Notes under the pieces: model-generated
Database searches by the model: none
What the model was told of the DNA's origin: nothing
Seen by the model: the letters and a program-made list of their open reading frames with translations, nothing else
Translations under genes and position numbers: made by a program
In this document: piece by piece, positions 21,068 through 37,134 of the stretch
How positions within the stretch are numbered: the first letter of the stretch is position 1
Layout of the letters: each line of letters opens with the position of its first letter
NCBI GenBank assembly: GCA_030390025.1
Contig: CM059431.1
Location: forward strand, 156,552,001 to 156,616,000
DNA from: Squalus acanthias
Taxonomy: Eukaryota
DNA length: 64,000 nucleotides
Direction of reading: 5' to 3'

Positions 21068-24000
21068 ATGGGGTAATGAGGTAGCATGTTTAGCCATGAA
21101 CGCATTGAATGGCGGTGCAGGCTCGAAGGACCGAATGGTCTACTCCTGTACCTATTTTCTATGTTTCTATGTTTCTATGACACAAGCTGCTTTGGAGACA
21201 GGGTTTTTTTTAACTCACTAATTGAAATATTACAACTCAAACCTGTGGAGTCAAGATAAATCTGCAGTCTCGCCAATCCAGTATCCTGGGTAATTCGGAC
21301 AGTAACGTGTCAGAGTACCCTTGACTATGCAGAGGGTCAGTGTAACCTGGGGTACAGAGAAGTTTGGATTGCTGCTGTGCTATTGAATCTGTGGCGGCTT
21401 AGAGTACACTGAGCTATTGGGCATTTAGAGGGTCAGAGATCCTAGGCTATTGAGTCTGTAGAGGGCCAGCGCTATGTAGATTTTTGGAGTACCTTGGGCG
21501 ATTGAATCTGTATAGGGTCAGAGTATGTAGGCTATTGAGTCTGTAGAGGTTCAGACTATCCTGCGCAATTAGATTTGTAGATGGTGAAAGTGCCCGGGAC
21601 TGTTGTGCCTCCAAAGGTTCAGATTACTTTGCACTACTAATAATGTAGAGCGTCAGTGTATTCTGGGCTATTGGTCCAGTAAAGGGACATATTACCCTCG
21701 GCTATTTAGAGAGTCAGAGTACTCTGGGCTATACAGAGGGTCAGAGCAAACTGTGCTATATAGAGGGTTAGAGTATCCTGGGCTACACAGAGTGTCAGGG
21801 CACCCTGGGCGATAAAGTGTGTCAAAGTATGCTGGGCTATACCGAGGGTCAGAGCAAACTGGGATATACAGAGGGTCAGATCACCCTGGGCTACACAGAT
21901 TTCAGAGTAACCTTGGCTACACAGAGTGTCAGTAACCCTGAGCTACACAGAGGGTCAGAGTAACCTGGGCTGTGCAGAGGGTCAGAGTACCCTGGGCAAC
22001 ACAGAGTTTCAGAGTGCCCCGGCCTATACAGAGGAGCAGACTGCCCCGGGCTATACAGAGGGTCACAGCACCCTGTGCAATAAAACGGGAGGGAGTACCC
22101 TGGGCTACAAAGAGTGTCAGAATACCCTGGGTACACAGAGTTTCAGTTTACCATGGGCTATACAGAGTGTCAGTGTACCCTGGTCAATAGAGAGTGGCAG
22201 AGTACCCTGGGCTATACGGAGTGTCAGAGCACCCTGGGCTACAAAGAATGTCAGTGTACATTGGGCTATACAGAGTGTCAGAGAATTTGCGCTACACAGA
22301 GTGTCAGATGAGCTGGGCAACACAATGTGTAAGAGTACCCTGGGCTATACAGTGTGTCAGATACACTGGGCTAAACAGAGGGCCGGAGCACCGATGGCTA
22401 TAGAGAGTGTCAGAGTATTCTGGGTTACACAGAGTGTCAGAGTAACCTGGGCTGTACAGAGTGTCAGATAAACCTGGGCTACACAGAGTGTCAGATTACG
22501 CTTGGCTACACAGAGAGTCAGAGTAACCTGGTACACACAGAGTGTCAGAGTATCCTGGGCTATACTGTGTCAGACTAACCTGGGTAAACATAGTGTCAGA
22601 ATATCCTGGGCTATACAGAGTGTCAGCGTACCCTCGGCTACACAGAGTGTCGGAGTACCCTGGGCTACACAGAGTGTCAGACTAACCTGGGCTACACAGA
22701 GTGTCTAATTAGCCTGGGCTATACATGAGTGTCAGATTACACTGGGCAATAAAGAGTGTCAGAGTACCCTGAGCTACAGACAGTGTCAGATACCTGTACT
22801 ACACAAAGGGTCCGAGTATCCTTGGCTATACTGATGGTCAGATTATCCTGGGCTACACAGAGTGCCAGAGTACCCAGGGCTATACAGAGAGCCAGCGTAG
22901 CTTTGCTACACAGAGTGGCAGAGTTCACTAGGCAACACAGAGGATCAGAATACCCTGGACTTTGGAAAATTTGTCAGAGTAGCATGGGGTATAGAGCTTC
23001 TCGGACTACATGGGACATACAGAGTGCCAGAGTACCCAAGGCAACACAGAGTGTCAGACTACCCTGGGTTAAATAGACTGTCAAAATACCCTGCGCTACA
23101 GAGAGTGTCAGAGCACCCTGGGCTAAACAGAGTGTCAGAATACCCTGGGCAAAACAGATTGTCAGATTACACTTAGCTATAATTATTGTAAGAGTATCCT
23201 GGGCTATACAGAGTGTCAGAGTACCCTGGGATGTCCAAAGGGTCAGAGTACCCTGGGCTATACAAACTGTCAGCGTACTTTGGGCTTTACAGAGTGCCAG
23301 CTAACCTTTGTCTATAAAGACGGTCAGAATAAAATGGGCTATAAGGGATGTACAGAGTATTCTGGGCTTTTCAGAGGGTCAGAGTACCATGAGCTACGAT
23401 GAGAGTCATAATGCCCTGGGCTAAATAGAGTGTCAGCGGAACCTATGCGACACAGAGTGTCAGAGTACCCTGCGCCTAACAGAGTAACAGAGTACCCTGG
23501 GCTACACAGAGTGTCAGAATATCCTGGGCAATACAGAGTGTCAGCGTATCCTGGGCTACCCATAGTGTCTCAGTATGCTGAGCTACACAGAGGGTCAGAC
23601 TACCCTCGGCTACACAGAGTGGCAGATTACCCTGGGCTACACAGTGTGGCAGATTACCCTGAGCTACACAGAGTGGCAGATTAACCTGGGCTACAGAGAG
23701 TGGCAGATTACACTTGGCTATACAGAGTGTCAGACTAACCCTGGGCTACAGAGATTCTTAAATAACCTCGGCTACACAGAGGGTACGAGCATCCTGGGCT
23801 TCAGAGTCTGTCAGAGTAGCCAGAACTATACAGAGTGCCAGAGTAACCTGGGCTACACAGAGTGGCAGAGTTACCTAGGCTGCTCAGTGTGTCAGAATAT
23901 CTTGGGCTATAGAGAGGGTCAGAGTAACCTGGTCTATAGAGAGTGTCGGAGTACCTGGGCAACAGAGAGTGTCAGAATATCCTGGGCTATACAGAGCGCC

Positions 24001-24560
24001 AGAGTACCCTGGGCTACACAGAGTGTCAGAATACCCTGGGCTGTAGAGATGTTCAGAATATCCTGGGCTACACAGAGTGTCAGAGTACCCTGGGTTAAAC
24101 AGAGTGTCAGAATACACTGGGCTTTAGAGTAGGTCAGAGTTTGCTGGGCTACACAGCATGTCAGAATACCTCGGCTACACAGCGTGTCAGAGTACCCTGG
24201 TCTACAAAGAGTGTCAGAATATCCTGGGCTAAACAGATTGTCAGATTACCCTGGGATATACAGAGTGTAAGTGTATCCTGGGCTGTACAGAATGTCAGAT
24301 ACCCTGGGCCACACAGGGTGTCAGATACCCTGGGCTACATAGAGTGTCAGAGTACCTTGGGCTGAAAAGAGGGTCAGAGTATCTTGATGACACAGACTGT
24401 CAGTGTGCCCTGGGCTATACAGAGCGTCAGAGCAACCTGGCCTATACAGAGCGTCAGATTAACCTGGGTTACAAAGAGTGTCAGAGTAACCTTCGCTATA
24501 AAGAGTGTTAGAGTAGACTGAGCTGCACAGAGTACCAGAATCACCCTGGGCTACACAGAG

Positions 24561-25050
24561 CAGCGGGAGCCCAGGAGAGCGCGAGACTTCGGCGTTAGTA
24601 AACAGCAGCGGGACCCCAGGAGAGCGCGAGACTTCGGCTGCTGCGGGAGCTCAGGAGAGGGTGAGATTGGCGGCAGCAAACAGCAGCGGCAGCACAGGAG
24701 AGCACGAGACTTCGGCTGCAGCGGGAGCCCAGGAGAACACGAGACTTTGGCGGCAGTAAACAGCAGCGGGAGCACAGGAGAAACGGCTACAATGAGTGTA
24801 AAGAAGTAAAAATAAATCGAAGTGTGACGTCAACAGAAAGCAGGTATGTGATTGGTTGATGAGTATTTCTCTACTGCTCGCTTTTTCCAAAATTTGGCAT
24901 CTAAATTTAAGTGCCTTAGTGTAGTTTAAAAGATATACGTGTTCAAAAGTGACACCGGTGCAGGGGAAGAAGCTGATTGGTGAGTAGTGTTTGAGTGCTT
25001 TTTTTTTCTTCAATTTTATGTATATTTTTTTTTAATGTACTTCATAGTTA
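24561..25050 (+). mobile_element. Probable CR1-type 5'UTR/promoter fragment with short GC-rich tandem repeats
   Basis: Repeats of CAGCGGGAGCCCAGGAGAGCGCGAGACTTCGGC, a CRE (TGACGTCA, 24825-24832), ATTGG boxes at 24851 and 24976 and GT donor-like sites, followed by T-rich sequence. The layout resembles the CR1 5' region at 16.6-17.1 kb. Confidence 0.5.
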
Positions 25051-25108
25051 CGTTAAATGTGAGAAGTCGCACAACAATAGGTTATAGTCCAACAGCTTTA
25101 TTTGAAAT

Positions 25109-25143
25109 CACAAGGTTTCGGAGCGCTGCTCCTTCATCAGGTG
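25109..25143 (-). ncRNA. Minimal type I hammerhead ribozyme motif (stem III mutated)
   Basis: CAC-CTGATGA-A-GGAGC-agc-GCTCC-GAAA-CC-TT-GTG. Confidence 0.65.
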
Positions 25144-25490
25144 AAGTGAAGAGATGCATATAGGCACAGCATATATAGTCAGAGAACACTGCCAGGTGAC
25201 CATAGTTAATCTTACCAACTGCCCTTTATCACACCTCGGCAGAGAGATAATCACGGCAATCAAAGGTGTGGATGGCGGACAAATAGGTCCGTCAGGAAAA
25301 CATTTCATCAAAGACAATGTGGCAGATGCTGGGATCTGTATGGAAAACAAGAAACGTTTTTTGCTGGAAATCACACCAAGACCGGCCACATCTGTGTAGA
25401 GAGAACAAGCCAACGATGACTCGAGTCTGGATGACTCTATGTCAGGTGGGGTTACATGTAGCGTGGCATGAACCCAAGATCCCGGTTGAG

Positions 25491-25512
25491 GGTTAGGGTT
25501 AGGGTTAGGGTT
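25491..25512 (+). repeat. Short interstitial telomeric tract GG(TTAGGG)3TT
   Basis: Exact TTAGGG at 25493, 25499 and 25505. Confidence 0.9.
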
Positions 25513-25787
25513 CGTCGTTGGCTTGTTCTCTCTACACAGATGTGGCCGGATCTGGTGTGATTTCCAGCAAAAAAAGTTTTTTCTTTTCCATACAGACCCA
25601 AACATCTGCCACATTGTCGTTGATGTAATGTTTTCCTGACTGACCTGTTTGGACACCATCCACAGCTTTGATTGCCGTGATTATCTCTCTGCCGAGGTGT
25701 GATAAATGGCAGTCAGAAAGATTAATTGTAATCATCTGGCTGTGTTCTCTGACTATATATGCTGTGCCTACATGCATCTCTTCTCAT

Positions 25788-25822
25788 TACCTGACGAAAG
25801 AGCAGCGCTCTGAAAGCTTGTG
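25788..25822 (+). ncRNA. Minimal type I hammerhead ribozyme motif
   Basis: TAC-CTGACGA-A-AGAGC-agc-GCTCT-GAAA-GC-TT-GTG, with palindromic AAGCTT at stem III. Confidence 0.65.
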
Positions 25823-25910
25823 ATTTCAAATAAAGCTGTTGGACCATAACCTGGTGTTGTGCGACTTCTCACATTTGTCCCCCCCAATCCAACACCGGCA
25901 TCTCCACATC

Positions 25911-26538
25911 ATGGCTTCATTAGCCGAGGCTTAGAATATAAGAGCAGGGAGGTTATGATGGAGCTGTACAAAACGCTAGTTAGGCCACAGCTGGAATACT
26001 ATGTGCAGTTCTGGTCACCACACTATAGGAGGGATGTGATTGCATTGGAGAGGCTGCAGAGGAGATTCACCAGGATGTTGCCTGGGCTGGAGCGCTTCAT
26101 CTATGAAGAGAGAATGGAGAGGCTGGTGTTGTTTTCCTTAGAGCAGAGAAGGCTGAGGGGGGACCTGATTGAGGTGTACAAAATTATGAGGGGCATAGAT
26201 AGGGGAGATTGAAAGGAACGCTTCCCCTTAGTCGTGGGGTCAATACCCAAGGGGCGTAGTTTCAAGGTAAGGGGCAGGAGGTTTAGAGGGGATTTGAGCA
26301 AAACTATTTCACCCAGAGGATGGTTGGAATCTGGAACTCACTGCCTGAAAGGGTGGTAGAGGCAGTAATCCTCACAACATGCACGAAGCATTTTGATGAG
26401 CACTTGAAACGCCATAGCATACAAGGCTACGGAGCAAGTGCTGGAAAATAAGATTAGTAAAGACAGGGCTTGATGGCCGGCGCGGACACGGTGTGCGGAA
26501 GGGCCTCTTACTGTGCTGTTTAAATCTATGACTCTATG
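25911..26538 (+). mobile_element. CR1 3' fragment
   Basis: GFISRGLEYKSREVMMELYKTLVRPQLEY..LRGDLIEVYKIM; the tail reads ...CTGTGCTGTTTAAATCTATGACTCTATG. Confidence 0.9.
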
Positions 26539-27856
26539 AGAGTGTCAGAGTACCCCGGGCTTTAAAGAATGTCAGAGTATCCTGTGCTACACAACCCGTC
26601 AGACACCCTGGGTTACACAGAGGGACGGAGCAACGTAGTTTATGGAGAGTGTCAGAGTACCCTGGGCTATACAGAGTGTCAGAGTATCCCGTGTTAACAG
26701 AGTGTCAGAGTACCTTGCGCTACAAAGAGTGTCAATGTACCCTGGGCAATATGAGGTTCAGAGTGCACTGGGCTGCCCAGAGGGTCAGAGTACTTTGGGC
26801 TACACAGAGTGTCAAAGTACCTGTGCTAAACAGAGTGTCAGAGTAACCTGCGCTATAGAGCCTGTCAGATACACTGGGCTACACAGAGTGTCAGAGTACC
26901 CGGGGCTATAATGCGTGTCAGATTAACCTGGGCTATACAAAGTGTCAGAGTTCCCTGGGCTATACAGAGTGTCAGATTAACCTGGGCTTTATAGAGAGTC
27001 AACGTACCCTGGGCTCTACAGAGGGTCAGAGTAACCTGGATTATAAAGAGGTGCAGAGTACCCTGGGTAATACAGATTGTCAGATAAACCTAGGCTATAA
27101 TGTGTGTCAGAATACCCTGGGCTACACAGAGTGCCAGCGTTCCCTGTGCTCCACAGTGTGTCCGAGTAGCCTGGGCTAAAGAGAGTGTCAGTGTACCCTG
27201 GGCAACACAGAGTGTCAGAGAATCATGGGCTATACAGAGGGTCAGACTACCATGAGCTACACAGAGTGTCAGATTACCCTGGTCTATACTGAGAGACAGC
27301 GTACCCTGGGCTTTAGAGAGTGTCAGAGTAACCTGGGCTACAAAGAGGTTCGGAGTACCCTGGGATAGAGAGAGTGTCATAGTCACCTGGGCAACAGAGA
27401 GTGTCAGATTTATCTGGGCTATACAGGGTGTCTGATTAACCTGGGCTACACAGAGTGTCAGATATCCTGGGCTACACAGAGTGTCAGATATCCTGGGCTA
27501 CACAGAGGGTCCGAGTATCCTGGGCTGTACAGAGGATTAGAGTAACCAGGGCTACAGAGATTGTGAGTGTACACTGGGCGATACAGAGTGCCAGTGTACC
27601 CTGGGCTACACAGAGTGTCAGTGTACCCTGGGCTATAGAGGTTATTGGAGTACCTGGGATATACAGAGTGTCAGATTACCCTGGGCTGCACAGAGTGTCA
27701 GCATAAACTGGGCTACACAGAGCGTCAGAGTATCCCAGGCGACACAGAGTGTCACAGTACCGTATACTACACAGAGTGTCAGAGTATCCTGGGATACACA
27801 GCGTGTCAGAGTACCATGGGCTAAACAGAGTGTCACAGCACCGTGGGCTACACAGA

Positions 27857-30230
27857 TGTTTACGGGATGGTTTTCTGGAACAATATGTCGAGGAAGAAAC
27901 CTTAGATAAGGCCATCTTAGACTGGATATTATGTAACGAGAAAGGATTAATAAGCAATCTTGTTGTAAGAGGCCCCTTGGGTCAGAGTGATCATAATATG
28001 ATAGAATTCTTCATTAGGATGGAGAGTGAAGTAGTTGAATCAGAGACTGGGGTCCTGAATTTAAATAAAGGAATCTACGATGGTATGAGGCACGAATTGG
28101 GTAGGATTGATTTGGCAATGTCACCCATAGGGTTGACGGTGGCTAGGGAATGGCAAACATTGAAAGACTGTATGGATGAACAAAAGAATTTGTTCATCCC
28201 AGTGCGGCATAAGAATAAAACAAAAAGGGTGACCCAACCGTGGCTCACAAGAGAAATTAGAGATAGCATACGATTCAAGGACAGGGCATATAAATTGGCC
28301 AGAAAAAGCGGTAACCCTGAGGATTGGGAGCAGTTTAGGATTCACCAAAGGAAGACAAAGGGATTAATTAAGAAGGGGAAAATTTAATATGAAAGTAAGC
28401 TTGCTGGGAACATAAAAACTGATGTAAGAGCTTTTACAGATATGCGAAGAGAAAAAGATTTTCGAAATCAAGTGTAGGTCCACTCCATTCAGAAGCGGGG
28501 GAAGTTATAATGGGGAACAAAGAAATGGTGGACCAATTACATGCATATTTTGGTACTGTCTTCACAATGGTGGACACAAATAACCTCCCAGAGATGTTGG
28601 AGAACATACGCTCTGATGAAAGGGAGGAACTGAAATAAATCAGTATTTGCAGGGAAATGGTGTTAGGGAAATTGACGTGATTGAAAGCCGATAAATCCCC
28701 AGGGCCTGATAATCAATATCCCAGTGCACTTAAGGATGTGGCCCTGCAAATACTAAATGCATTGCTGATCATCTTCCAACATTCGATGGAATCTGGAACT
28801 GTTTCCATGGATTGGAGGGTAGCTAATGTTACCCCACTATTCAAAAAGGGTGGTAGAGAGAAAGCGGGGAATTACAGACCGGTAAGCCTGACATCGGTAG
28901 TGGGGAAAATGCTAGATTCCATTATAAAGGATGTAATAGCTGAGCACTTGAAAAACAGTGACTGGATCGGACAAAGTCAACATGGATTTACAAAAGGTAA
29001 ATCGTGCTTGACTAATCTACTGGAATTTTTTGAGGATGTAACTGGGAAAATAGATAAGGGAGAAATAGTAGATGTGGTGTATTTGGACTTTCAAAAGGCT
29101 TTTGATAAGGTCCCGCATAAGAGATTAGCGTGTAAAAATAAGGCACATGGGATTGGGGGCACTGTATTGACTTGGATAGAGAACTGGTTGGCGGACAGAA
29201 AGCAGAGATTAGTAATTAATGGGTCTTTTTCCGAGTGGCAAGCACTGACTAGTGGGGTACCGCAGGGATCGGTCCTTGGACCCCAGCTTTCACAATATAC
29301 ATTAATGACCTAGATAAGGGAACTAAATGTAATATCTCCAAGTTTGCAGATGACACAAAGCTGGGTGGGAGTGTGTGGTGCGAGGAGGATACCGACAACC
29401 TCCAGGATGATTTGGACAGGTTGGGTGAGTGGGCAGAAGCGTGGCAGATGCAATATAACGTGGATAAATGCGAGGTTATCCACTTTGGTGTCAAAAACAG
29501 AAAGGCAGACTATAATCTGAATAGCAATAGATTGGGAGAAGGCGAAGTGCAACGAGACCTGGGTATCCTTGTGCACCAGTCGCTGAAGGTTAGCATGCAG
29601 GTGCAGCAGGCGTTGAAGAAGGCTAATGGTATGTCGGCCTTCATAGCGAAAGGGTATGAGTATAGGAACAGGGATGTCCTGCTGCAGTTGTACAGGGCTT
29701 TGGTGAGACCACACCTTGAGTACTGCGTGCAGTTTTGGTCGCCTTATCTGAGGAAGGATGTTCTTGCCATGGAAGGAGTTCAGCGAAGATTCACAAGGCT
29801 GATACCTGGGATGGCAGGAATGACATATGAGGAGAGATTGGGTCGATTGGGCTTATACTTGCTGGGGTATAGAAGAATGAGAGGGGATTTCATCGAAACA
29901 TATAACATTCTGACAGGGCTGGAAAGACTGGATGCTGGAAGAATGTTCCCGATGGTCGGAGAGTCCAGAACCATGGGACATAATCTAAGCATAAGGGGTA
30001 AGCCATTTAAGACAGAAATTAGGAAGAATTTCTTCACCCAGAGCGTGGTGAACCTATGTAATTTTCTACCACAGAAGGTAGTTGAGGCCAAATCATTAAA
30101 TATATTCAAGAATGAGTTAGATATATTTCTTAAAGCTAAAGGTATCAAGGGATATGGGGAGAAGGCAGGTACAGGGTACTGAGTTTGGTGGATCAGCCAT
30201 GATCTCATAGAATGGTGGAGCAGGCTCGAG
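27857..30230 (+). mobile_element. 5'-truncated CR1 (same subfamily as 1-3208) whose 3' tail is cut at GCAGGCTCGAG
   Basis: ORFs 27749, 28681 and 29373 closely match the 1-3208 copy. Confidence 0.93.
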
Positions 30231-30640: not shown

Positions 30641-31761
30641 TAAGTACCCTGGGCTATAAATTGTGTCAGTGTACACTGGGCTACACAGAGTTTCAGAATA
30701 CCCTGGGCTATACAGATGTTTAGCTTAGCCTGGTCTACACAGAGCGTCAGAGCACCCTGGGCTACACAGAGTGTCAGAGTACCCTGTCCTACACAATGTG
30801 TCAGATTACCCTGGGCTAAACAGAGTGTCAGAGTACCTGGACTACACAGAGTGACACATTACCCTGGGCTACCCAAAGGGTCAGTGTACTTTGTTTTTAT
30901 ACAGAGTGTCAGAACGTCCTGGGCAATACAGCGGGTCGGAATAACCTGGGCTACACATGTTGTTAGAATATACTCAGCTATACAGAGGATCAGATCACCC
31001 TGGGCTGAACATAGTGCCAGAGATCCCTGGACTAAACAGAGTTTCAGTGCAACCTGGGCTACAGAGTGTCAGTGCAACCTGGGCTACAGAGTGCCAGTGC
31101 AACCTGGGCCACAGAGTGTCAGAGTACCCTGAGATACACAGAGTGTTTGAGTATCCTCAGCTATGCAGAGGGTCAGAGCACCTAGGGCTGAACAGAGTGT
31201 CAGAGCTCCCTGGGCAACACAGAGTGTCAGTGTACCCTGGGCAAAACAGAGCGTCACAGTAGCCTGGGTAATAGAGATTGTTAGAGAAGTAATGGCTACA
31301 CAGAGTGCCACAATACCCTTGCCTATACAGAGTGTTAGAGATGCCTGGGCTACACAGGGTGTCAGAGTACGTGGGCTACACAGAGTCAGAGTAGGGTGGG
31401 CTGCACAGAGCGGCAGAGTACCCTGGGCTACACAGAGTGCCACGGTTGCCTGGGCGACAGAGAGTGTCAGAGTACGTGGGCTACACAGAGTTTCAGAACA
31501 GCCTGAACTATACAGTGTTTTAGATTAGCCTGGGCTGCACATAGTGTTATAATTAATCTGCGCTACACACAGTGTCAGAGTGCCCTGGGCTATACAGGGT
31601 GTCAGAGTACCCTGGGTAACAAAGTGTGGCAGTTTTTCCTGGTCTTTACATTGGGTCAGATTACATTGGTTTACACAGAGGGTAAGTGTACCCTGGGCTA
31701 CACAGAGTGTCAGAGTACCTGGGCGACACAGTCTATCAGAGTACCAGGCCTACAAAGAATG

Positions 31762-32096
31762 CCCCCCCCCCACCTTTTTTTTTTCCTCCTAGAAGCTGGC
31801 AGCTGTCCTTCATTCTGCCAGTGGATTTCACGCTTCTTTCAGCCTTAATCTGTCACATTTACACCACCTCTAGCCTTGCATATCTCTTAATGTCTCTTAA
31901 TGTCTCTTCATCTCCCCCTTTGTTCTTTTATCCCCTCCCCCCTTTTCCCAGCTTTACTCTGGCCTTAAATCTATTTGATTTGCGGCTCTTCACAGTTCTG
32001 ATGAAAGGTCATCGACCTGAAACGTTAACTCTCTTTCTCTCTCCACGGATGCTGCCTGGCCTGCTGAGTTTTTCCAGCGTTTTCTGTTGTTATTTC
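31762..32096 (+). mobile_element. Penelope-like 3' terminal fragment (second family) flanked by AGAATG duplication
   Basis: Pyrimidine-rich UTR, hammerhead motif, then GATGCTGCCTGGCCTGCTGAGTTTTTCCAGC. AGAATG occurs at 31756-31761 and 32097-32102. Confidence 0.75.
31994..32030 (+). ncRNA. Intact-looking minimal type I hammerhead ribozyme
   Basis: AGTT-CTGATGA-A-AGGTC-atc-GACCT-GAAA-CG-TT-AACT: stems I and II are perfect, stem III is palindromic AACGTT, and the cleavage triplet is GUU. Confidence 0.75.
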
Positions 32097-35000
32097 AGAA
32101 TGTCAGAATACCCTGGCTATACGGAGGGTCAGAGTAACCTGGGCTACACACAGTGTCAGAGTATCCTGGGCTATACAGAGTGCCAGTGAACCCTGGGGTA
32201 AAAAGAATGGGAGAGAACGGTGAACTACACAGAGGGGCAGAATACCCTGGACTACACAGAGTGGCAGAGTCCCCTGGGCTACAAAGAGTGTCAGATTACC
32301 CTGGGAAATAGAGAGGGTCAGAGCACCCCGGGCAATACAGAGTGTTAGAGTACCGTGGGCTACAGAGAGTGGTAGTGTTCCCTCGGCCATAAAGAATGTC
32401 AAAGTACGTGGGGTACACATAGTGTCAGATTTCCCAGGGCTACACAGAGTGTCAGAATAACCTGGGCTGCACAGAGTTTCAGAGTACCCTGGACTACACA
32501 GAGTGTAAGCGAATCCTGGGCTAAACAGTGTCAGATACAGTGTTCTACACAGAGGGTCATACCACCTTGGGCTACAGAGAGTGTCATAGTACACTGGGCT
32601 GCACAGATTGTCAGAGTAGCCTGGGATACACAGAGTGTCAGAATACCTTGAGCTACAAATAGTGTCAGAATATCCTGGGCTATACAGAGTGTCAGAGTAT
32701 CCTGTGATTTACAGAGAGTCAGAGCACGCTGAGATATACAGAGTGTCATGGTACCGTGGTCTATACTGTGTTTCAAATTACCCTGGGCTATACAGATGGT
32801 CAGAGTACCCTGGGCTATCCAAAGGTACAGTGTATCCTGGGCTATATAGTGTGTCAGAGTAACCTGGGCTACACAGAGTGTTGGAGTATCCTGAGCTAGA
32901 CAGAGGGCCAGTGCACCCTGGGCTATAGAGAGTGCCATAGTATCCTGGGCTAGAGAGATTGACAGAGTATACTGGGATACACAGAGTGTCAGAATACCTT
33001 GGGCTAGACAGTGTCAGAATACCCAGGGCTATACAGAGTGTCAGAGTAGCCTAGACTATAATGAGTGTCAGTGTACCCTTGGCTATACAGAGAGTCAAAA
33101 TACGCTGAGATATAAAGAGTGTCAGGGTACACTGGGCTATATGAATTTCTGAATACCCTGGGCTATACAGAGGGTCAGAGCACCCTTGGCTATGCAGAAG
33201 TACAGAGTGCCCGTGGCAATACAGAGTGTCAGAGGACCCTGGGCAAAAATGAATTTCAGACTACCTTCGGCTACACGGATTTTCAGAGTACCCTGGGATA
33301 CACCGAGTGTCAGAGTATCATGGGCTATGCTGTGTCAGAGTAACCTGGGCTACACAGAGTATCATAGTGCCCTGGGCTATATAGAGTGTTCGTGCACCCT
33401 GGGCTACACAGAATGTCAGGGAACAGTGAGCTGCACAGATGGTCAGACTACCCTGGGATACACAGAATGTCAGTTTACCCTGGGCTATACACAGTGTCAG
33501 AGTAAACTGGGCTATACAGAGTGGCAGAGTATCCTGGGCTATACAGAGTATCAGAGTATCCTGGGCTATACAGTTTCAGATTAACCTGGGCTACAAAGAG
33601 TGTCAGAGTACCCAGCGTGAAACACAGCGTCTGAGTGCCCCGGACTGCTCAGAGTGTCAGAGTATCCAGCAATAGTCAGAGCTCCAGATTATCCTGGGCT
33701 ATACAGAGTGGCAGAGCACCCTGGACTGCATTGAGTGTCAGACTAACCCGGGAAATGAATAGTGTCAGATTACCTTGGGCTAAACAGAGGAGAAGAGCAC
33801 CCAGGTCTATACACATAATCAGAGTACCTTAGGCTATACACACACTCAGAATACCTGGGCGACACAGTCTGTCAGAGTAAAAGGGCTACAAAGAATGTCA
33901 GAATACCCTGGCTATAGGCAGTGTCAGAGCATCCTGGGCTACACAGTGTGTCAGAGTAACCTGGGCTACACACAGTGTCAGAGTATCCTGGGCTATACAG
34001 AGTGCCAGTAAACAGAATGTGAGAGAACGGTGAACTACACAGAGGGGCAGAATACCCTGGACTACACAGAGTGGCAGAGTCCCCTGGGCTACAAAGAGTG
34101 GCAGAGTCCCCTGGGCTACAAAGAGTGGCAGATTACCCTGGGCTATAGAGAGGTTCAGAGCACCCCGGGCTATACAGAGGGTTAGAGTACCGTGGGCTAC
34201 AAAGAGTGGCAGTGTTCCCTCGGCTATACAGAGTGACAGAGTACGTGGGGTACACATAGTGTCAGATTTCCCAGGGCTGCACAGAGTGTCAGAATAACCT
34301 GGGCTGCACAGAGTGTCAGATTACCCTGGACTTCACAGAGTGTAAGCGAATCCTGGGCTACACAGTGTGTCAGAGTACCGTGGGCAGTACACAGTGTCAG
34401 TTACCGTTGTCTACACAGAGGGTCAGACCACCCTGGGCTACAGAGAGTGTCATAGTACACTGGGCTGCACAGATTGTCAGAGTAGCCTGGGATACACAGA
34501 GTGTCAGAATACCTTGGGCTACACATAGTGTCAGAATATCCTGTGCTATACAGAGTGTCAGAGTACCCTTGGCTATAAAGAGAGTCAGAATACGCTGAGA
34601 TATAAAGAGTGCCAGGGTGCACTGGGCTATATGAATTTCAGAATAGCCTGGGCTATACAGAGGGTCAGAGCACCCTTGGCTATACAGAAGTACAGAGTAC
34701 CCTGGGTTATACAGAGTGTCAGAGTACCCTGGGCAAAAATGAAATTCAGACTACAATCGGCGACACGGATTTTCTGAATACCCTGGGATACACCGAGTGT
34801 CAGAGTATCATGGGCTATACTGTGTCAGAGTAACCTGGGCTACACGGAGTATCATAGTGCCCTGGGCGATACAGAGCATCAGAGTGCCCTGGGCTATATA
34901 GAGTGTCAGTGCACCCTGGGCTACACAGAGTGTCAGGGAACAGTGGCTACACAGATGGTCAGACTACCCTGGGATACAAAGAATGTCAGATTACCCTGGG

Positions 35001-37134
35001 CAATACACAGTTTCAGAGTAACTGGGCTATACAGATTGGCAGAGTATCCTGGGTTATACAGAGTATCAGAGTATCCTGGGCTATACAGTTTCAGATTAAC
35101 CTGGGCTACAAATAGTGTCAGAGTACCCAGCGCGAAACACAACATCAGATAGCCCCGGACTGCACAGCGTGTCAGAGTATCCTGCAATAGACAGAGCTCC
35201 AGATTATCCTGGGCTATACAGAGTGGCAGAGCACCCTGGACTGCATAGAGTGTCAGACTATCCCGGGAAATAAATAGTGTCAGATTAACTTGGGCTAAAC
35301 AGAGGGGAAGAGCACCCAGGTCTATACACAGCGTCAGAGTACCTGAGGCTATACACACACTCAGAGTACCCCGGGTTACAGAGATTGTCAGTGTAACCTG
35401 GGCTACACAGATTGTCAGAGTAACCTGGACTACACAGAGGGTATGAATACCCTAGGCTACATTAAGTGTCAGGGCACCCTGGACTTTTCAGAGTGCCAGA
35501 ATTTCCTGAGCTATAGAGAGTGTCAGATTATCCTGGGCAAAAGAGATTATCGGAGTAGCTGGGCTACACAGAGTGCCAGATTACTCTGGGCTAAACCGAG
35601 GGTCAGGGTACCCTGGGCTACACAGAGGATGAGAGTATCCTGGGCTATACAGAGTGTCAGAGTACCCTGGGCTACCCAGAGTGTCACAGGTATTTGGGCT
35701 ATTCAGATGGTCAGAATAACCTGATCTATAGAGTATACAAGAGTACCCTGGGCTACACAGATGGTCAGAGTACCCAGGCTACAGAGAGTGTCAGAGTACA
35801 ATGGGCTAAACAGAGTGTCAGAGTATCCTGGGCTACACAGAGGGTTAGAGTACCCTGGGCTACACAGAGGTTCAGAGTACTCTGGGCTACACAGAGGGTC
35901 AGAGTACCCTGGGCTATAAAGTGTGTCAGTGTACACTGGGCTACACAAAGTGTCAGAATAACCTGGTCTTTACAGAAGTTTAGATTAGCCTGGGCTACAC
36001 AGAGTGTCAGAGTAGTCTAGGCAAGAGAGAGAGACAGAATACACATGGGTCACAAAGAGTGTCAGAATAACCTGGGCTATTCAGTGTGTCAGAATACCCT
36101 GGGCTACACAGAGTGTCACAGTACTCTGGGCTACACAGAGGATCAGTGTATCCTGGGCTATACAGAGCGCCATAGTACCTGGGTTACCCAGAGGGTCAGA
36201 GTTCTTTTGGGTATACAGAGGTTCAGAGCAACCTGGCCAATACAGCGGGTAGGAGTACCCTGGGCTACACAATGTGTCAGAATATACTGGGCTGCACAGA
36301 TTGTCAGAATAGCTTGGGCTATACAGAGGGTTAGACAAGCCTGTGCTACACAGAGTTTCAGAATAAACTGGGCCACACAGAGGGTTAGAGCGCCGTGGGC
36401 TATACAGCGGGTCGGAGTACCCTGGGATAGAAAGAGTTTCAGAGTACACTGGGCTACACAGAGTGTCAGAACACCCTGTACTATAGAGAGTGTCAGAGTA
36501 TCCTGGGCTATTAAGAGGTTCAGAATAACCTGAGCTATAGAGAGGGGCAGATTATCCTGGGCTATAGAGAGTATCGGAGTACCTGGGCTACACAGAGTGT
36601 CAGAATACCCTGAGCTATACAGACTGCCAGAATATCCTGGGCTATACAGAGTGTCAGAGCATCCTGGGTTATACAAAGTTTCACAGTATCCTGGGCTATA
36701 CTGTTTCAGATTAACCCAGGCTACACAGAGTGCCAGAATACCCTGAGCGACGCAGAGTGTCAGAGTACCATGGACTGCACAGAGTGTCAGAGTATCCTGC
36801 GATATACAGATTTTCAGATTAACCTGGGTTATACAGAGTGGCAGAGCACACTGAGCTATACACAGGGTCAAAGTACCCTGAGCTACTCAGAGTGTCAGAG
36901 TACCCTGGACTGCATAGAATGTCAGAATATCCTCGGAAATAAAGAGTGTCAGATTACACTGGGCTAAACAGAGGGGAAGATCATCCTCAGCTATACACAG
37001 TGACAGAGTACCTTAGGCTATACACAATCTCAGAGTACCCTGGGCTATACAGATTGTCAGAAGAACCTGGGCTACACAGAGGGTCTGATTACCCTGGGAT
37101 ACACAGAGTTGCATAGTACACTGGGCAACACAAA

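What the first reader, a model, noticed from the sequence alone, without database searches (positions are those of the whole stretch)
25055..25876. Penelope foldback with telomeric repeats at its inversion junction and hammerhead motifs at both ends
Seen: two ~365-bp inverted arms (25055-25419 / 25512-25876). The left copy continues on the minus strand into an ORF end (LNRDLGFMPRYM*, 25490-25452) and stops at GGTTGAGG. GTTAGGGTTAGGGTTAGGGTT follows at once, then the second arm begins. Known: Penelope-like elements (PLEs) form tandem and inverted terminal copies, carry minimal hammerheads, and have RTs related to telomerase RT; endonuclease-less PLEs associate with telomeres. Inference: the + strand of the left arm is the PLE first-strand cDNA, so the G-rich repeats lie exactly on the 3' end of a truncated cDNA ending in a telomere-like seed. 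That is the polarity expected if telomerase extended the cDNA, or if the PLE RT switched to telomerase RNA, before fold-back or second priming. A transcript would form a long dsRNA hairpin with a telomeric loop. Each strand would carry one sense hammerhead near its 3' end.
Basis: partly seen in the sequence, partly recalled or inferred. Interest (0 to 1): 0.8.

Follow-up and report, generated by a model that had tools for sequence, protein, structure and literature searches.

The report
Telomere-repeat repair scar in Penelope foldback
Two back-to-back broken copies of a Penelope-like jumping gene are joined by 20 bases of telomere repeat, and a sister copy elsewhere in the genome that keeps 737 more bases and has no such repeat indicates that this is likely an ordinary chromosome break-repair scar, not a product of the element's own copying.

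Summary
There are two inverted arms of 365 nt at 89% identity (25055-25419 / 25512-25876). The left copy runs into a Penelope-like element (PLE) ORF end. GTTAGGGTTAGGGTTAGGGT (25492-25511) lies exactly between the two 5'-truncated copies. The junction is unique in the 3.7-Gb genome.

The proposed timing does not hold. A sister locus (C2044) shares the left flank and both arms. Each arm shares private variants only with its own counterpart (A-A 5-7, B-B 8, crosswise 0). There the two copies are joined directly, with 737 more bases and no telomeric repeat. A third locus (C8) keeps the same direct junction. So the foldback existed first, was duplicated, and the window copy then most likely lost its centre and gained the repeat.

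The break end ...TTGAGG has 3 nt in register with the repeat. This matches short interstitial telomeric sequences inserted during double-strand-break repair in vertebrates, sharks included.

None of 26 other head-to-head PLE junctions sampled carries telomeric repeats. The hammerhead-like core boxes are present in both arms, but no Rfam model matches.

Verdict: a new instance of a known kind of scar, of low interest.

By-product: at least three PLE lineages occupy the same nucleotide position of one host repeat. This is unexplained.

The parts
24760..25054 (.). End of a high-copy host repeat into which the PLE pair was inserted. The last 10 nt (about 25046-25055, AGTTACGTTA) correspond to the target-site duplication AGTTAAGGTA.
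   Evidence: at least 2536 candidate copies, and most matches end at window 25050; 8 of 12 loci examined show the uninterrupted site CATAGTTAAGGTAGTTCGGGAG.
25055..25491 (-). PLE copy A: 5'-truncated 3' end of a subfamily-1 Penelope-like element, without the terminal tail. It holds the last 13 codons of the ORF (25490-25452, LNRDLGFMPRYM*) and the 3' untranslated part.
   Evidence: It is 93-95% identical to the 40 best of at least 2343 candidate copies. 32 of 33 other copies run on upstream into the ORF.
25108..25144 (-). Hammerhead-like motif of copy A: UCAC CUGAUGA A GGAGC-AGC-GCUCC GAAA CCUU GUGA. The AGCU palindrome of the family is broken here (ACCU).
   Evidence: Read directly. The fold shows helix I and helix II. 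No Rfam match.
25489..25491 (+). AGG: the last three bases of copy A, in register with the telomeric run (the putative primer end for telomerase).
   Evidence: C2044 reads ...GGTTGAGG|CCGTCC here and the window reads ...GGTTGAGG|GTTAGGG.
25492..25511 (+). Telomeric filler GTTAGGGTTAGGGTTAGGGT (20 nt, no mismatch). With the in-register AGG before it and T after it, the run is 24 nt, or four hexamers.
   Evidence: It is absent from 33 of 33 other family copies at this position and from the sister locus C2044.
25512..25912 (+). PLE copy B: 5'-truncated 3' end of the same subfamily, with the 36-nt terminal tail (25877-25912, GTCC...CATCAT).
   Evidence: It is 95% identical to C2044:369470-369071 and shares 8 derived variants with that copy only.
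25787..25823 (+). Hammerhead-like motif of copy B: UUAC CUGACGA A AGAGC-AGC-GCUCU GAAA GCUU GUGA.
   Evidence: Read directly. No Rfam match. The minimum-energy fold of this arm does not show the hammerhead helices.
25913..26535 (+). 5'-truncated CR1-like LINE fragment that abuts the end of copy B, where the sister locus has the target-site duplication and the rest of the host repeat. It is a second rearrangement at this locus.
   Evidence: the frame reads ...GFISRGLEYKSREVMMELYKTLVRPQLEY.... The CR1 name is from recall, and Pfam found nothing; homology to C2044 stops at 25912.

Best explanation
An old head-to-head pair of 5'-truncated Penelope-like element ends is inferred to have lost 737 bp across its inversion junction after integration and duplication, and the 20 nt of TTAGGG repeat that now seal the gap were likely added by telomerase to the broken 3' end ...TTGAGG before the two ends were rejoined. 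Shown: the pair, the filler, its uniqueness, the sister loci with a direct junction, and the arm-specific shared variants. Inferred: the direction of change (loss rather than gain, because 737 bp of colinear PLE sequence cannot be regained), that a double-strand break was the cause, and that telomerase rather than captured telomeric DNA supplied the repeats (about 2 to 1 in my estimate). It is only a guess that the inverted repeat provoked the break. The result is a short interstitial telomeric sequence: a repair scar with no function of its own.
For: (1) The repeat is not part of the family. 32 of 33 other copies in 29 loci read on through the point where copy A stops (...GAGGACGGCCTCAACCGG). 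The remaining copy is truncated 2 nt away and joined directly to an inverted PLE piece. (2) Sister locus C2044. Window 24718-25491 matches C2044:370967-370208 at 92.5%, and window 25512-25912 matches 369470-369071 at 95%. There copy A reaches family position 1424 and copy B reaches 913, joined with an overlap of at most 1 nt and no filler. The window lacks 737 nt of this. (3) Common descent after the foldback formed. Window A and C2044 A share 5 derived variants within the element (7 when 40 nt of shared flank are included). Window B and C2044 B share 8. Crosswise they share 0 and 0. By contrast the maximum shared with any of 31 family copies is 3 for the A copies and 1 for the B copies. (4) C8:93.517 Mb aligns without a break over 657 nt (88%) across the same direct junction. 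(5) In-register microhomology is AGG on the A side and T on the B side. Three in-register bases have a chance of about 1/64 (my arithmetic). (6) Known precedent: short telomeric runs inserted at break sites. About half come with deletion of flanks (65 of 130 rodent loci, 13 of 25 primate loci), and 67-80% show in-register microhomology (PMC2246262, passages read). Such loci are also found in a shark (PMC8537989, passages read). (7) 0 of 26 other head-to-head PLE junctions in 52 loci hold telomeric repeats, and 20 of the 26 are joined with 0-4 nt between the copies.
Against: No read-level check of the junction was possible: public contigs of 4 low-coverage runs left 25494-25514 uncovered. No orthologous locus from another species could be examined, so the polarity of change rests on paralogues within one genome. 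Homology to C2044 stops at the outer end of copy B (25912), so the two loci are not colinear on that side. Nothing separates telomerase from capture or templated copying of telomeric DNA. There is no TERC-derived flank, which would have pointed to telomerase RNA. The ancestral inverted repeat had a 511-nt spacer, which makes cruciform extrusion a weak reason for the break. I did not show that TTAGGG is this organism's terminal repeat: 0 of 4 contig starts carry it, although long arrays exist in the genome (11,711 overlapping matches to 8 units, control 0).
Confidence: 0.8

Rival explanations
1. Same post-integration deletion, but the 20 nt were not made by telomerase. Instead they would be a captured fragment of telomeric or interstitial TTAGGG DNA, or were copied from such an array by microhomology-mediated template switching during repair or replication restart. 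This is nested within the class of the best explanation and differs only in the source of the repeats.
For: The genome holds many long TTAGGG arrays that could serve as donors. Microhomology at both sides (AGG, T) is also expected for template switching. PMC2246262 names capture of telomeric fragments as the alternative (passage read).
Against: The in-register 3' end is what telomerase priming predicts, and the authors of PMC2246262 use it as their argument for telomerase. The run is exact and short.
Confidence: 0.27
2. One reading: the repeats were added during retrotransposition. Either telomerase extended the truncated first-strand cDNA, or the PLE reverse transcriptase switched to telomerase RNA, before fold-back or second priming.
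For: The polarity fits: the G-strand continues from the 3' end of the antisense strand of copy A, which ends in a telomere-like TTGAGG. PLE RTs are the closest relatives of telomerase RT, and endonuclease-less PLEs attach to telomeres (PMC8557442, abstract and introduction passages).
Against: C2044 and C8 keep a direct A/B junction without repeats. C2044 shares arm-specific post-insertion variants with the window, so the foldback predates the repeat. 0 of 26 other head-to-head junctions carry repeats. The junction word is unique in the genome. The family is of the endonuclease-bearing type: the ORF end has a GIY-YIG-like motif by eye, and the nearest Atlas clusters carry PF01541 in 22-35% of members.
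Confidence: 0.04
3. Two independent PLE insertions landed on either side of a pre-existing short telomeric run.
For: PLE insertions recur at this host-repeat position, so repeated hits nearby are conceivable.
Against: The empty host site has no telomeric run in the 8 of 12 loci examined that show it. Both arms descend from the arms of one foldback that was joined directly. The 5'-truncated ends, not the 3' integration ends, face the run.
Confidence: 0.02
4. Assembly artefact: a chimeric or palindromic long read, or a collapse, created the junction.
For: PLE tandem and inverted structures are known to trouble assemblies (PMC8557442, passage read). I could not lay reads across the junction.
Against: The arms differ at 11% of positions, and each carries variants shared only with its counterpart in C2044. 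Read-level palindrome artefacts give identical arms. No artefact is known to me that writes an exact telomeric run, in register with the flank, at a deletion.
Confidence: 0.03

Closest known systems
Short interstitial telomeric sequences inserted during double-strand-break repair (Nergadze et al. 2007, PMC2246262; vertebrate survey PMC8537989)
   Same: It is a short exact TTAGGG run at an internal site that is absent from a related empty locus. It is accompanied by deletion of flanking sequence. [quoted passage not shown] It lies inside a repetitive element.
   Different: The comparison here is with paralogues in one genome, not orthologues in sister species. The break removed the junction of an inverted pair of Penelope-like element copies. 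There is no telomerase-RNA-derived flank, so it is not of the TERC-ITS subclass. At 20 nt it lies at the short end of the range.
Canonical endonuclease-bearing Penelope-like elements with an inverted 5'-truncated copy and a one-sided 30-40-bp tail (Craig et al. 2021, PMC8557442)
   Same: The arms are exactly this: an inverted 5'-truncated copy next to a longer 5'-truncated copy, a 36-nt tail at one end only, a target-site duplication of about 10 bp, and a hammerhead-like motif in the terminal part.
   Different: In the window the original inversion junction has been deleted and replaced by telomeric repeats. The other 26 sampled junctions carry no telomeric repeats, and 20 of them are joined with 0-4 nt between the copies.
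Endonuclease-less, telomere-attached PLEs (Athena, Coprina; Gladyshev and Arkhipova 2007, as cited in PMC8557442)
   Same: A PLE sequence adjoins telomeric repeats, with a hammerhead motif nearby.
   Different: Those elements carry reverse-complement telomeric repeats at their 3' end and sit at chromosome ends. Here the repeats lie between two 5'-truncated ends, 3.2 Mb from the contig end, and the family has an endonuclease-type ORF end.
Minimal type I hammerhead ribozymes of PLEs (Cervera and de la Pena 2014; Lunse et al. 2017; as summarised in PMC7761336)
   Same: CUGANGA and GAAA boxes, a short helix II, and almost no helix III. The family form has a palindromic AGCU that would allow a dimeric helix III.
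   Different: There is no match to any Rfam hammerhead model and an extra A between the CUGANGA box and helix II. The window's own two copies carry mutations. Cleavage is untested.

Membership tests
Penelope-like element, endonuclease-bearing | Reverse transcriptase domain in the single ORF | tested here: met
   Family copy L005 gives Pfam RVT_1 at E 4.5e-9, 36.8 bits, cut-off 29.6. The window's own copies are too truncated to hold it.
Penelope-like element, endonuclease-bearing | C-terminal GIY-YIG endonuclease | tested here: inconclusive
   No Pfam hit at E up to 10 for two family ORF ends. The nearest ESM Atlas clusters (score 0.97) carry PF01541 GIY-YIG in 22-35% and PF26215 in 45-76% of members. 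The motif ...VVYLIRC...AWYIGET...R...H is read by eye.
Penelope-like element, endonuclease-bearing | Inverted 5'-truncated copy next to the main copy, and frequent 5' truncation | tested here: met
   Seen in the window and in C2044. 26 head-to-head pairs were found in 52 other loci. Some are duplicates of one another, for example L065 and L067.
Penelope-like element, endonuclease-bearing | [quoted passage not shown] | tested here: met
   A 36-nt GTCC...CATCAT tail follows copy B only, in the window, in C2044 and at C7:159.137 Mb.
Penelope-like element, endonuclease-bearing | Hammerhead ribozyme motif in the terminal repeat | tested here: inconclusive
   The core boxes are read by eye and are conserved in three PLE lineages, with one compensatory pair in helix I (C-G to U-A) and one G-C to G-U change in helix II. 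There is no Rfam match at E up to 10, and fold z-scores range from -0.85 to +0.23.
Short interstitial telomeric sequence from break repair | Exact telomeric hexamers at an internal site, absent from a related empty locus | tested here: met
   The empty state is also seen at C8. The comparison loci are paralogues, not orthologues.
Short interstitial telomeric sequence from break repair | Modification of the break site (deletion, addition or duplication) | tested here: met
   737-nt deletion relative to C2044.
Short interstitial telomeric sequence from break repair | [quoted passage not shown] | tested here: met
   AGG, 3 nt.
TERC-ITS subclass | Fragment retrotranscribed from telomerase RNA beside the repeats | tested here: not met
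   The 20 nt are pure repeat. Both neighbours are PLE sequence colinear with C2044.
Endonuclease-less telomeric PLEs (Athena/Coprina) | Reverse-complement telomeric repeats at the element's 3' end, and location at chromosome termini | tested here: not met
   The repeats lie at the 5'-truncated ends. The locus is 3.2 Mb from the end of a 159.8-Mb contig.
Hammerhead ribozyme (Rfam families) | Score above noise against a curated covariance model | tested here: not met
   cmscan of 24000-27000 at E up to 10 gave one unrelated weak miRNA match and no hammerhead.
Hammerhead ribozyme (Rfam families) | Self-cleavage | not testable with these tools
   Needs in vitro transcription of monomeric and dimeric constructs.

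The most novel reading that the evidence does not exclude
The filler was written not by telomerase but by a Penelope-like reverse transcriptase, telomerase RT's closest relative, copying telomerase RNA or a telomeric transcript onto a chromosomal break end inside its own dead copy. In that case PLE enzymes would take part in break repair and seed interstitial telomeric repeats.
Probability: 0.03. Interest if true: 0.7.

Novelty: new member of a known kind. Interest (0 to 1): 0.22.

Why it matters
As it stands this is one more example of a telomere-repeat repair scar, here in a repeat-rich distal region of a large chromosome. It adds a cautionary case: the polarity of telomeric repeats at a retroelement truncation point cannot by itself tell a cDNA event from a chromosomal break. 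Paralogues that keep the older state can date the event. A mechanistic link between Penelope-like elements and telomerase would have been of real interest, but it is not supported at this locus. The more intriguing result is the side observation that three PLE lineages occupy one and the same nucleotide position of a host repeat. This bears on how PLE endonucleases choose or re-cut targets.

Tried and rejected
**Rfam.** No hammerhead family matched 24000-27000 at E up to 10.

**Sequencing runs.** No run holds more than 27% of the sampled words, and no RNA holder is listed. Contigs of X1, X3, X5 and X6 laid at 97% left 25494-25514 without cover. They are short repeat-family pieces, so there is no verdict on the assembly, on polymorphism or on expression.

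**Recurrent central deletions.** I first read the different centres at C5:108.379 Mb and C10:65.745 Mb as repeated deletions of one ancestral foldback. I dropped this reading because their arms belong to another, younger PLE subfamily. They are separate insertions, and their truncation points may be original.

**Same insertion site as proof of paralogy.** I dropped this for the same reason. Paralogy of the window and C2044 rests on arm-specific variants and the shared flank instead.

**GIY-YIG by Pfam.** No hit.

**Terminal telomere repeats.** 0 of 4 contig starts carry TTAGGG.

**Earlier notes of the scan.** Nothing on this genome near the locus. Notes on other genomes did not move my reading.

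**Target-site duplication for the window's right side.** The CTTCAT shared by the left flank and 25915-25920 is part of the CR1-like coding sequence, not a duplication.

**Correction to my notebook.** Entry 2 says 9 of 12 empty sites. The count is 8 of 12: 3 loci carry a PLE and 1 ends earlier.

Full report
**What is there.** Between 25055 and 25912 lie two copies of the 3' end of one retroelement family, head to head.
- Copy A (25055-25491, minus strand) holds the last 13 codons of an ORF (LNRDLGFMPRYM*, 25490-25452) and about 400 nt of untranslated tail.
- Copy B (25512-25912, plus strand) starts 72 nt further into the element. It ends with an extra 36-nt tail (25877-25912) that copy A lacks.
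- The shared part forms inverted arms of 365 nt at 89% identity. As single-stranded DNA it would fold at -373 kcal/mol, against -101 +/- 6 for shuffles.
- Between the copies stands GTTAGGGTTAGGGTTAGGGT (25492-25511).
- This is the only run of two or more TTAGGG units in the window. The junction word is unique in the 3.7-Gb genome.

**What the element is.** The own genome holds at least 2343 candidate copies, and the 40 best are 93-95% identical to copy A. Upstream of the point where copy A stops, 32 of 33 other copies in 29 loci continue with ...GAGGACGGCCTCAACCGG and an ORF.
- That ORF contains a reverse transcriptase (Pfam RVT_1, E 4.5e-9).
- Its C-terminal part has no Pfam hit. Its nearest Atlas clusters carry GIY-YIG in 22-35% of members.
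- Other features match canonical endonuclease-bearing Penelope-like elements as described in PMC8557442 (passages read). These are inverted 5'-truncated partner copies (26 head-to-head pairs in 52 other loci), a one-sided tail of about 35 nt, and target-site duplications of 9-14 bp.
- A hammerhead-like motif (CUGAYGA, 5-bp helix II, GAAA, palindromic AGCU, 4-bp helix I) sits about 55-90 nt from the end of each arm that is shared with its partner.
- The motif is conserved in three PLE lineages of this genome, with one compensatory change in helix I.
- No Rfam model matches it, and its folds are no better than shuffles. I therefore call it a motif, not a ribozyme.

**The decisive comparison.** Contig C2044 holds a sister locus.
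- It shares the left flank and copy A (window 24718-25491, 92.5%) and copy B (25512-25912, 95%). It also shares larger blocks further left.
- In C2044, copy A reaches family position 1424 and copy B reaches 913. They are joined directly with an overlap of at most 1 nt.
- The window lacks 737 nt of this: 77 from A and 660 from B, including the whole 511-nt stretch present only in B. It has the 20-nt telomeric run instead.

**Are the two loci one insertion or two?** They are one.
- Relative to the majority base of 31 other copies, window A and C2044 A share 5 derived variants within the element (7 if 40 nt of flank are counted).
- Window B and C2044 B share 8.
- A and B share none crosswise, and one within the window.
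- No family copy shares more than 3 variants with an A copy or more than 1 with a B copy.
- Variants private to one arm, yet shared between loci, must have arisen after the foldback formed and before it was duplicated.
- A third locus, C8:93.517 Mb, aligns without a break over 657 nt across the same direct junction.
- Colinear PLE sequence cannot be regained, so the direct junction is the older state and the telomeric junction is the derived one.

**Mechanism.**
- The A-side break end on the plus strand is ...GGTTGAGG-3'. Its last three bases are in register with the run that follows.
- One base (T) is in register on the B side.
[quoted passage not shown] About half of those loci show deletion of flanks, and 67-80% show in-register microhomology, which is taken as evidence for telomerase (PMC2246262, passages read).
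- Related loci occur in a shark (PMC8537989, passages read).
- I therefore read the run as a break-repair scar, with telomerase the likelier source and capture or templated copying of telomeric DNA as the alternative.
- That the inverted repeat caused the break is a guess. With a 511-nt spacer it was not a strong cruciform former.

The polarity argument is correct but not diagnostic, because a chromosomal 3' end gives the same picture.
- The repeat is absent from the family at this position.
- It is absent from the older state of this very foldback.
- It is absent from all 26 other head-to-head junctions sampled, 20 of which are joined with 0-4 nt. That sample was chosen by similarity, and some pairs are duplicates of one another.

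**Limits.**
- The junction could not be checked against reads.
- Only paralogues were available, not orthologues.
- Homology with C2044 ends at 25912, where a CR1-like LINE fragment abuts copy B in place of the target-site duplication. The locus has therefore been rearranged more than once.
- I did not show that TTAGGG caps this organism's chromosomes, although long arrays exist.

**By-product.** The left flank belongs to a host repeat with at least 2536 candidate copies, and 8 of 12 loci examined show the empty site CATAGTTAAGGTAGTTCGGGAG. PLE inverted pairs sit at exactly this position, with the duplication AGTTAAGGTA, in three lineages:
- the window and C2044 (subfamily 1);
- C5:108.379 Mb and C10:65.745 Mb (subfamily 2; the C10 arm is 99-100% identical to 40 copies elsewhere);
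- C7:159.137 Mb (a 205-nt non-autonomous family, 99% identical to copies elsewhere).

Ten other foldback insertions have unrelated targets. So at least three lineages have hit one nucleotide position, which is not explained.

**Verdict.** The identity as a PLE foldback with a telomeric run at its centre is confirmed. The proposed retrotransposition-time origin is not supported. This is a new instance of a known kind of repair scar.

Noticed in passing
window 25046-25055; loci L035 (C2044), L036 (C7:159.137 Mb), L059 (C5:108.379 Mb), L061 (C10:65.745 Mb): At least three PLE lineages (an old subfamily, a young 99-100% identical subfamily, and a 205-nt non-autonomous family) are inserted as inverted pairs at the same nucleotide position of different copies of one host repeat. 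All have the same 10-bp duplication AGTTAAGGTA, whereas ten other foldback insertions have unrelated targets. Possible causes are target preference, re-cutting of the regenerated target, or conversion of an old occupant. This is not resolved.
   Followed up: partly
window 25913-26535: A 5'-truncated CR1-like LINE fragment starts exactly at the outer end of PLE copy B and runs to the start of the 27-bp satellite at 26539. It replaces the target-site duplication and the rest of the host repeat seen in C2044. This is a second break or rearrangement at the same locus.
   Followed up: partly
window 21179-24560, 26539-27859, 30663-31761, 32096-36000 and beyond: Kilobase blocks of a 27-bp tandem repeat (unit like AGAGTGTCAGAGTACCCTGGG...) lie next to a 45-bp repeat at 24549-24800. 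These blocks and neighbouring modules recur several times in the window and in C2044, which indicates a higher-order repeat region.
   Followed up: no
L056, L057 and many places listed: A roughly 205-nt non-autonomous PLE-tail element has at least 1490 candidate copies at 94-100% identity. It carries the hammerhead-like motif and the tail, so it looks like a young, short PLE-dependent element. Four further loci (L047-L050) hold it as an inverted pair.
   Followed up: partly
L011 (C1:178.729 Mb), positions 1194-1933: Another subfamily-1 copy is 5'-truncated only 2 nt from the point where the window's copy A stops. It is joined directly to an inverted PLE fragment without any filler, so this position is not tied to telomeric repeats.
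   Followed up: no
G000 C1:127.09 Mb, C2:17.78 Mb, C3:86.52 Mb: Long internal arrays of exact TTAGGG repeats span kilobases (11,711 overlapping matches to eight units genome-wide, strongly biased to one strand of the assembly: 10,331 against 1,380).
   Followed up: no
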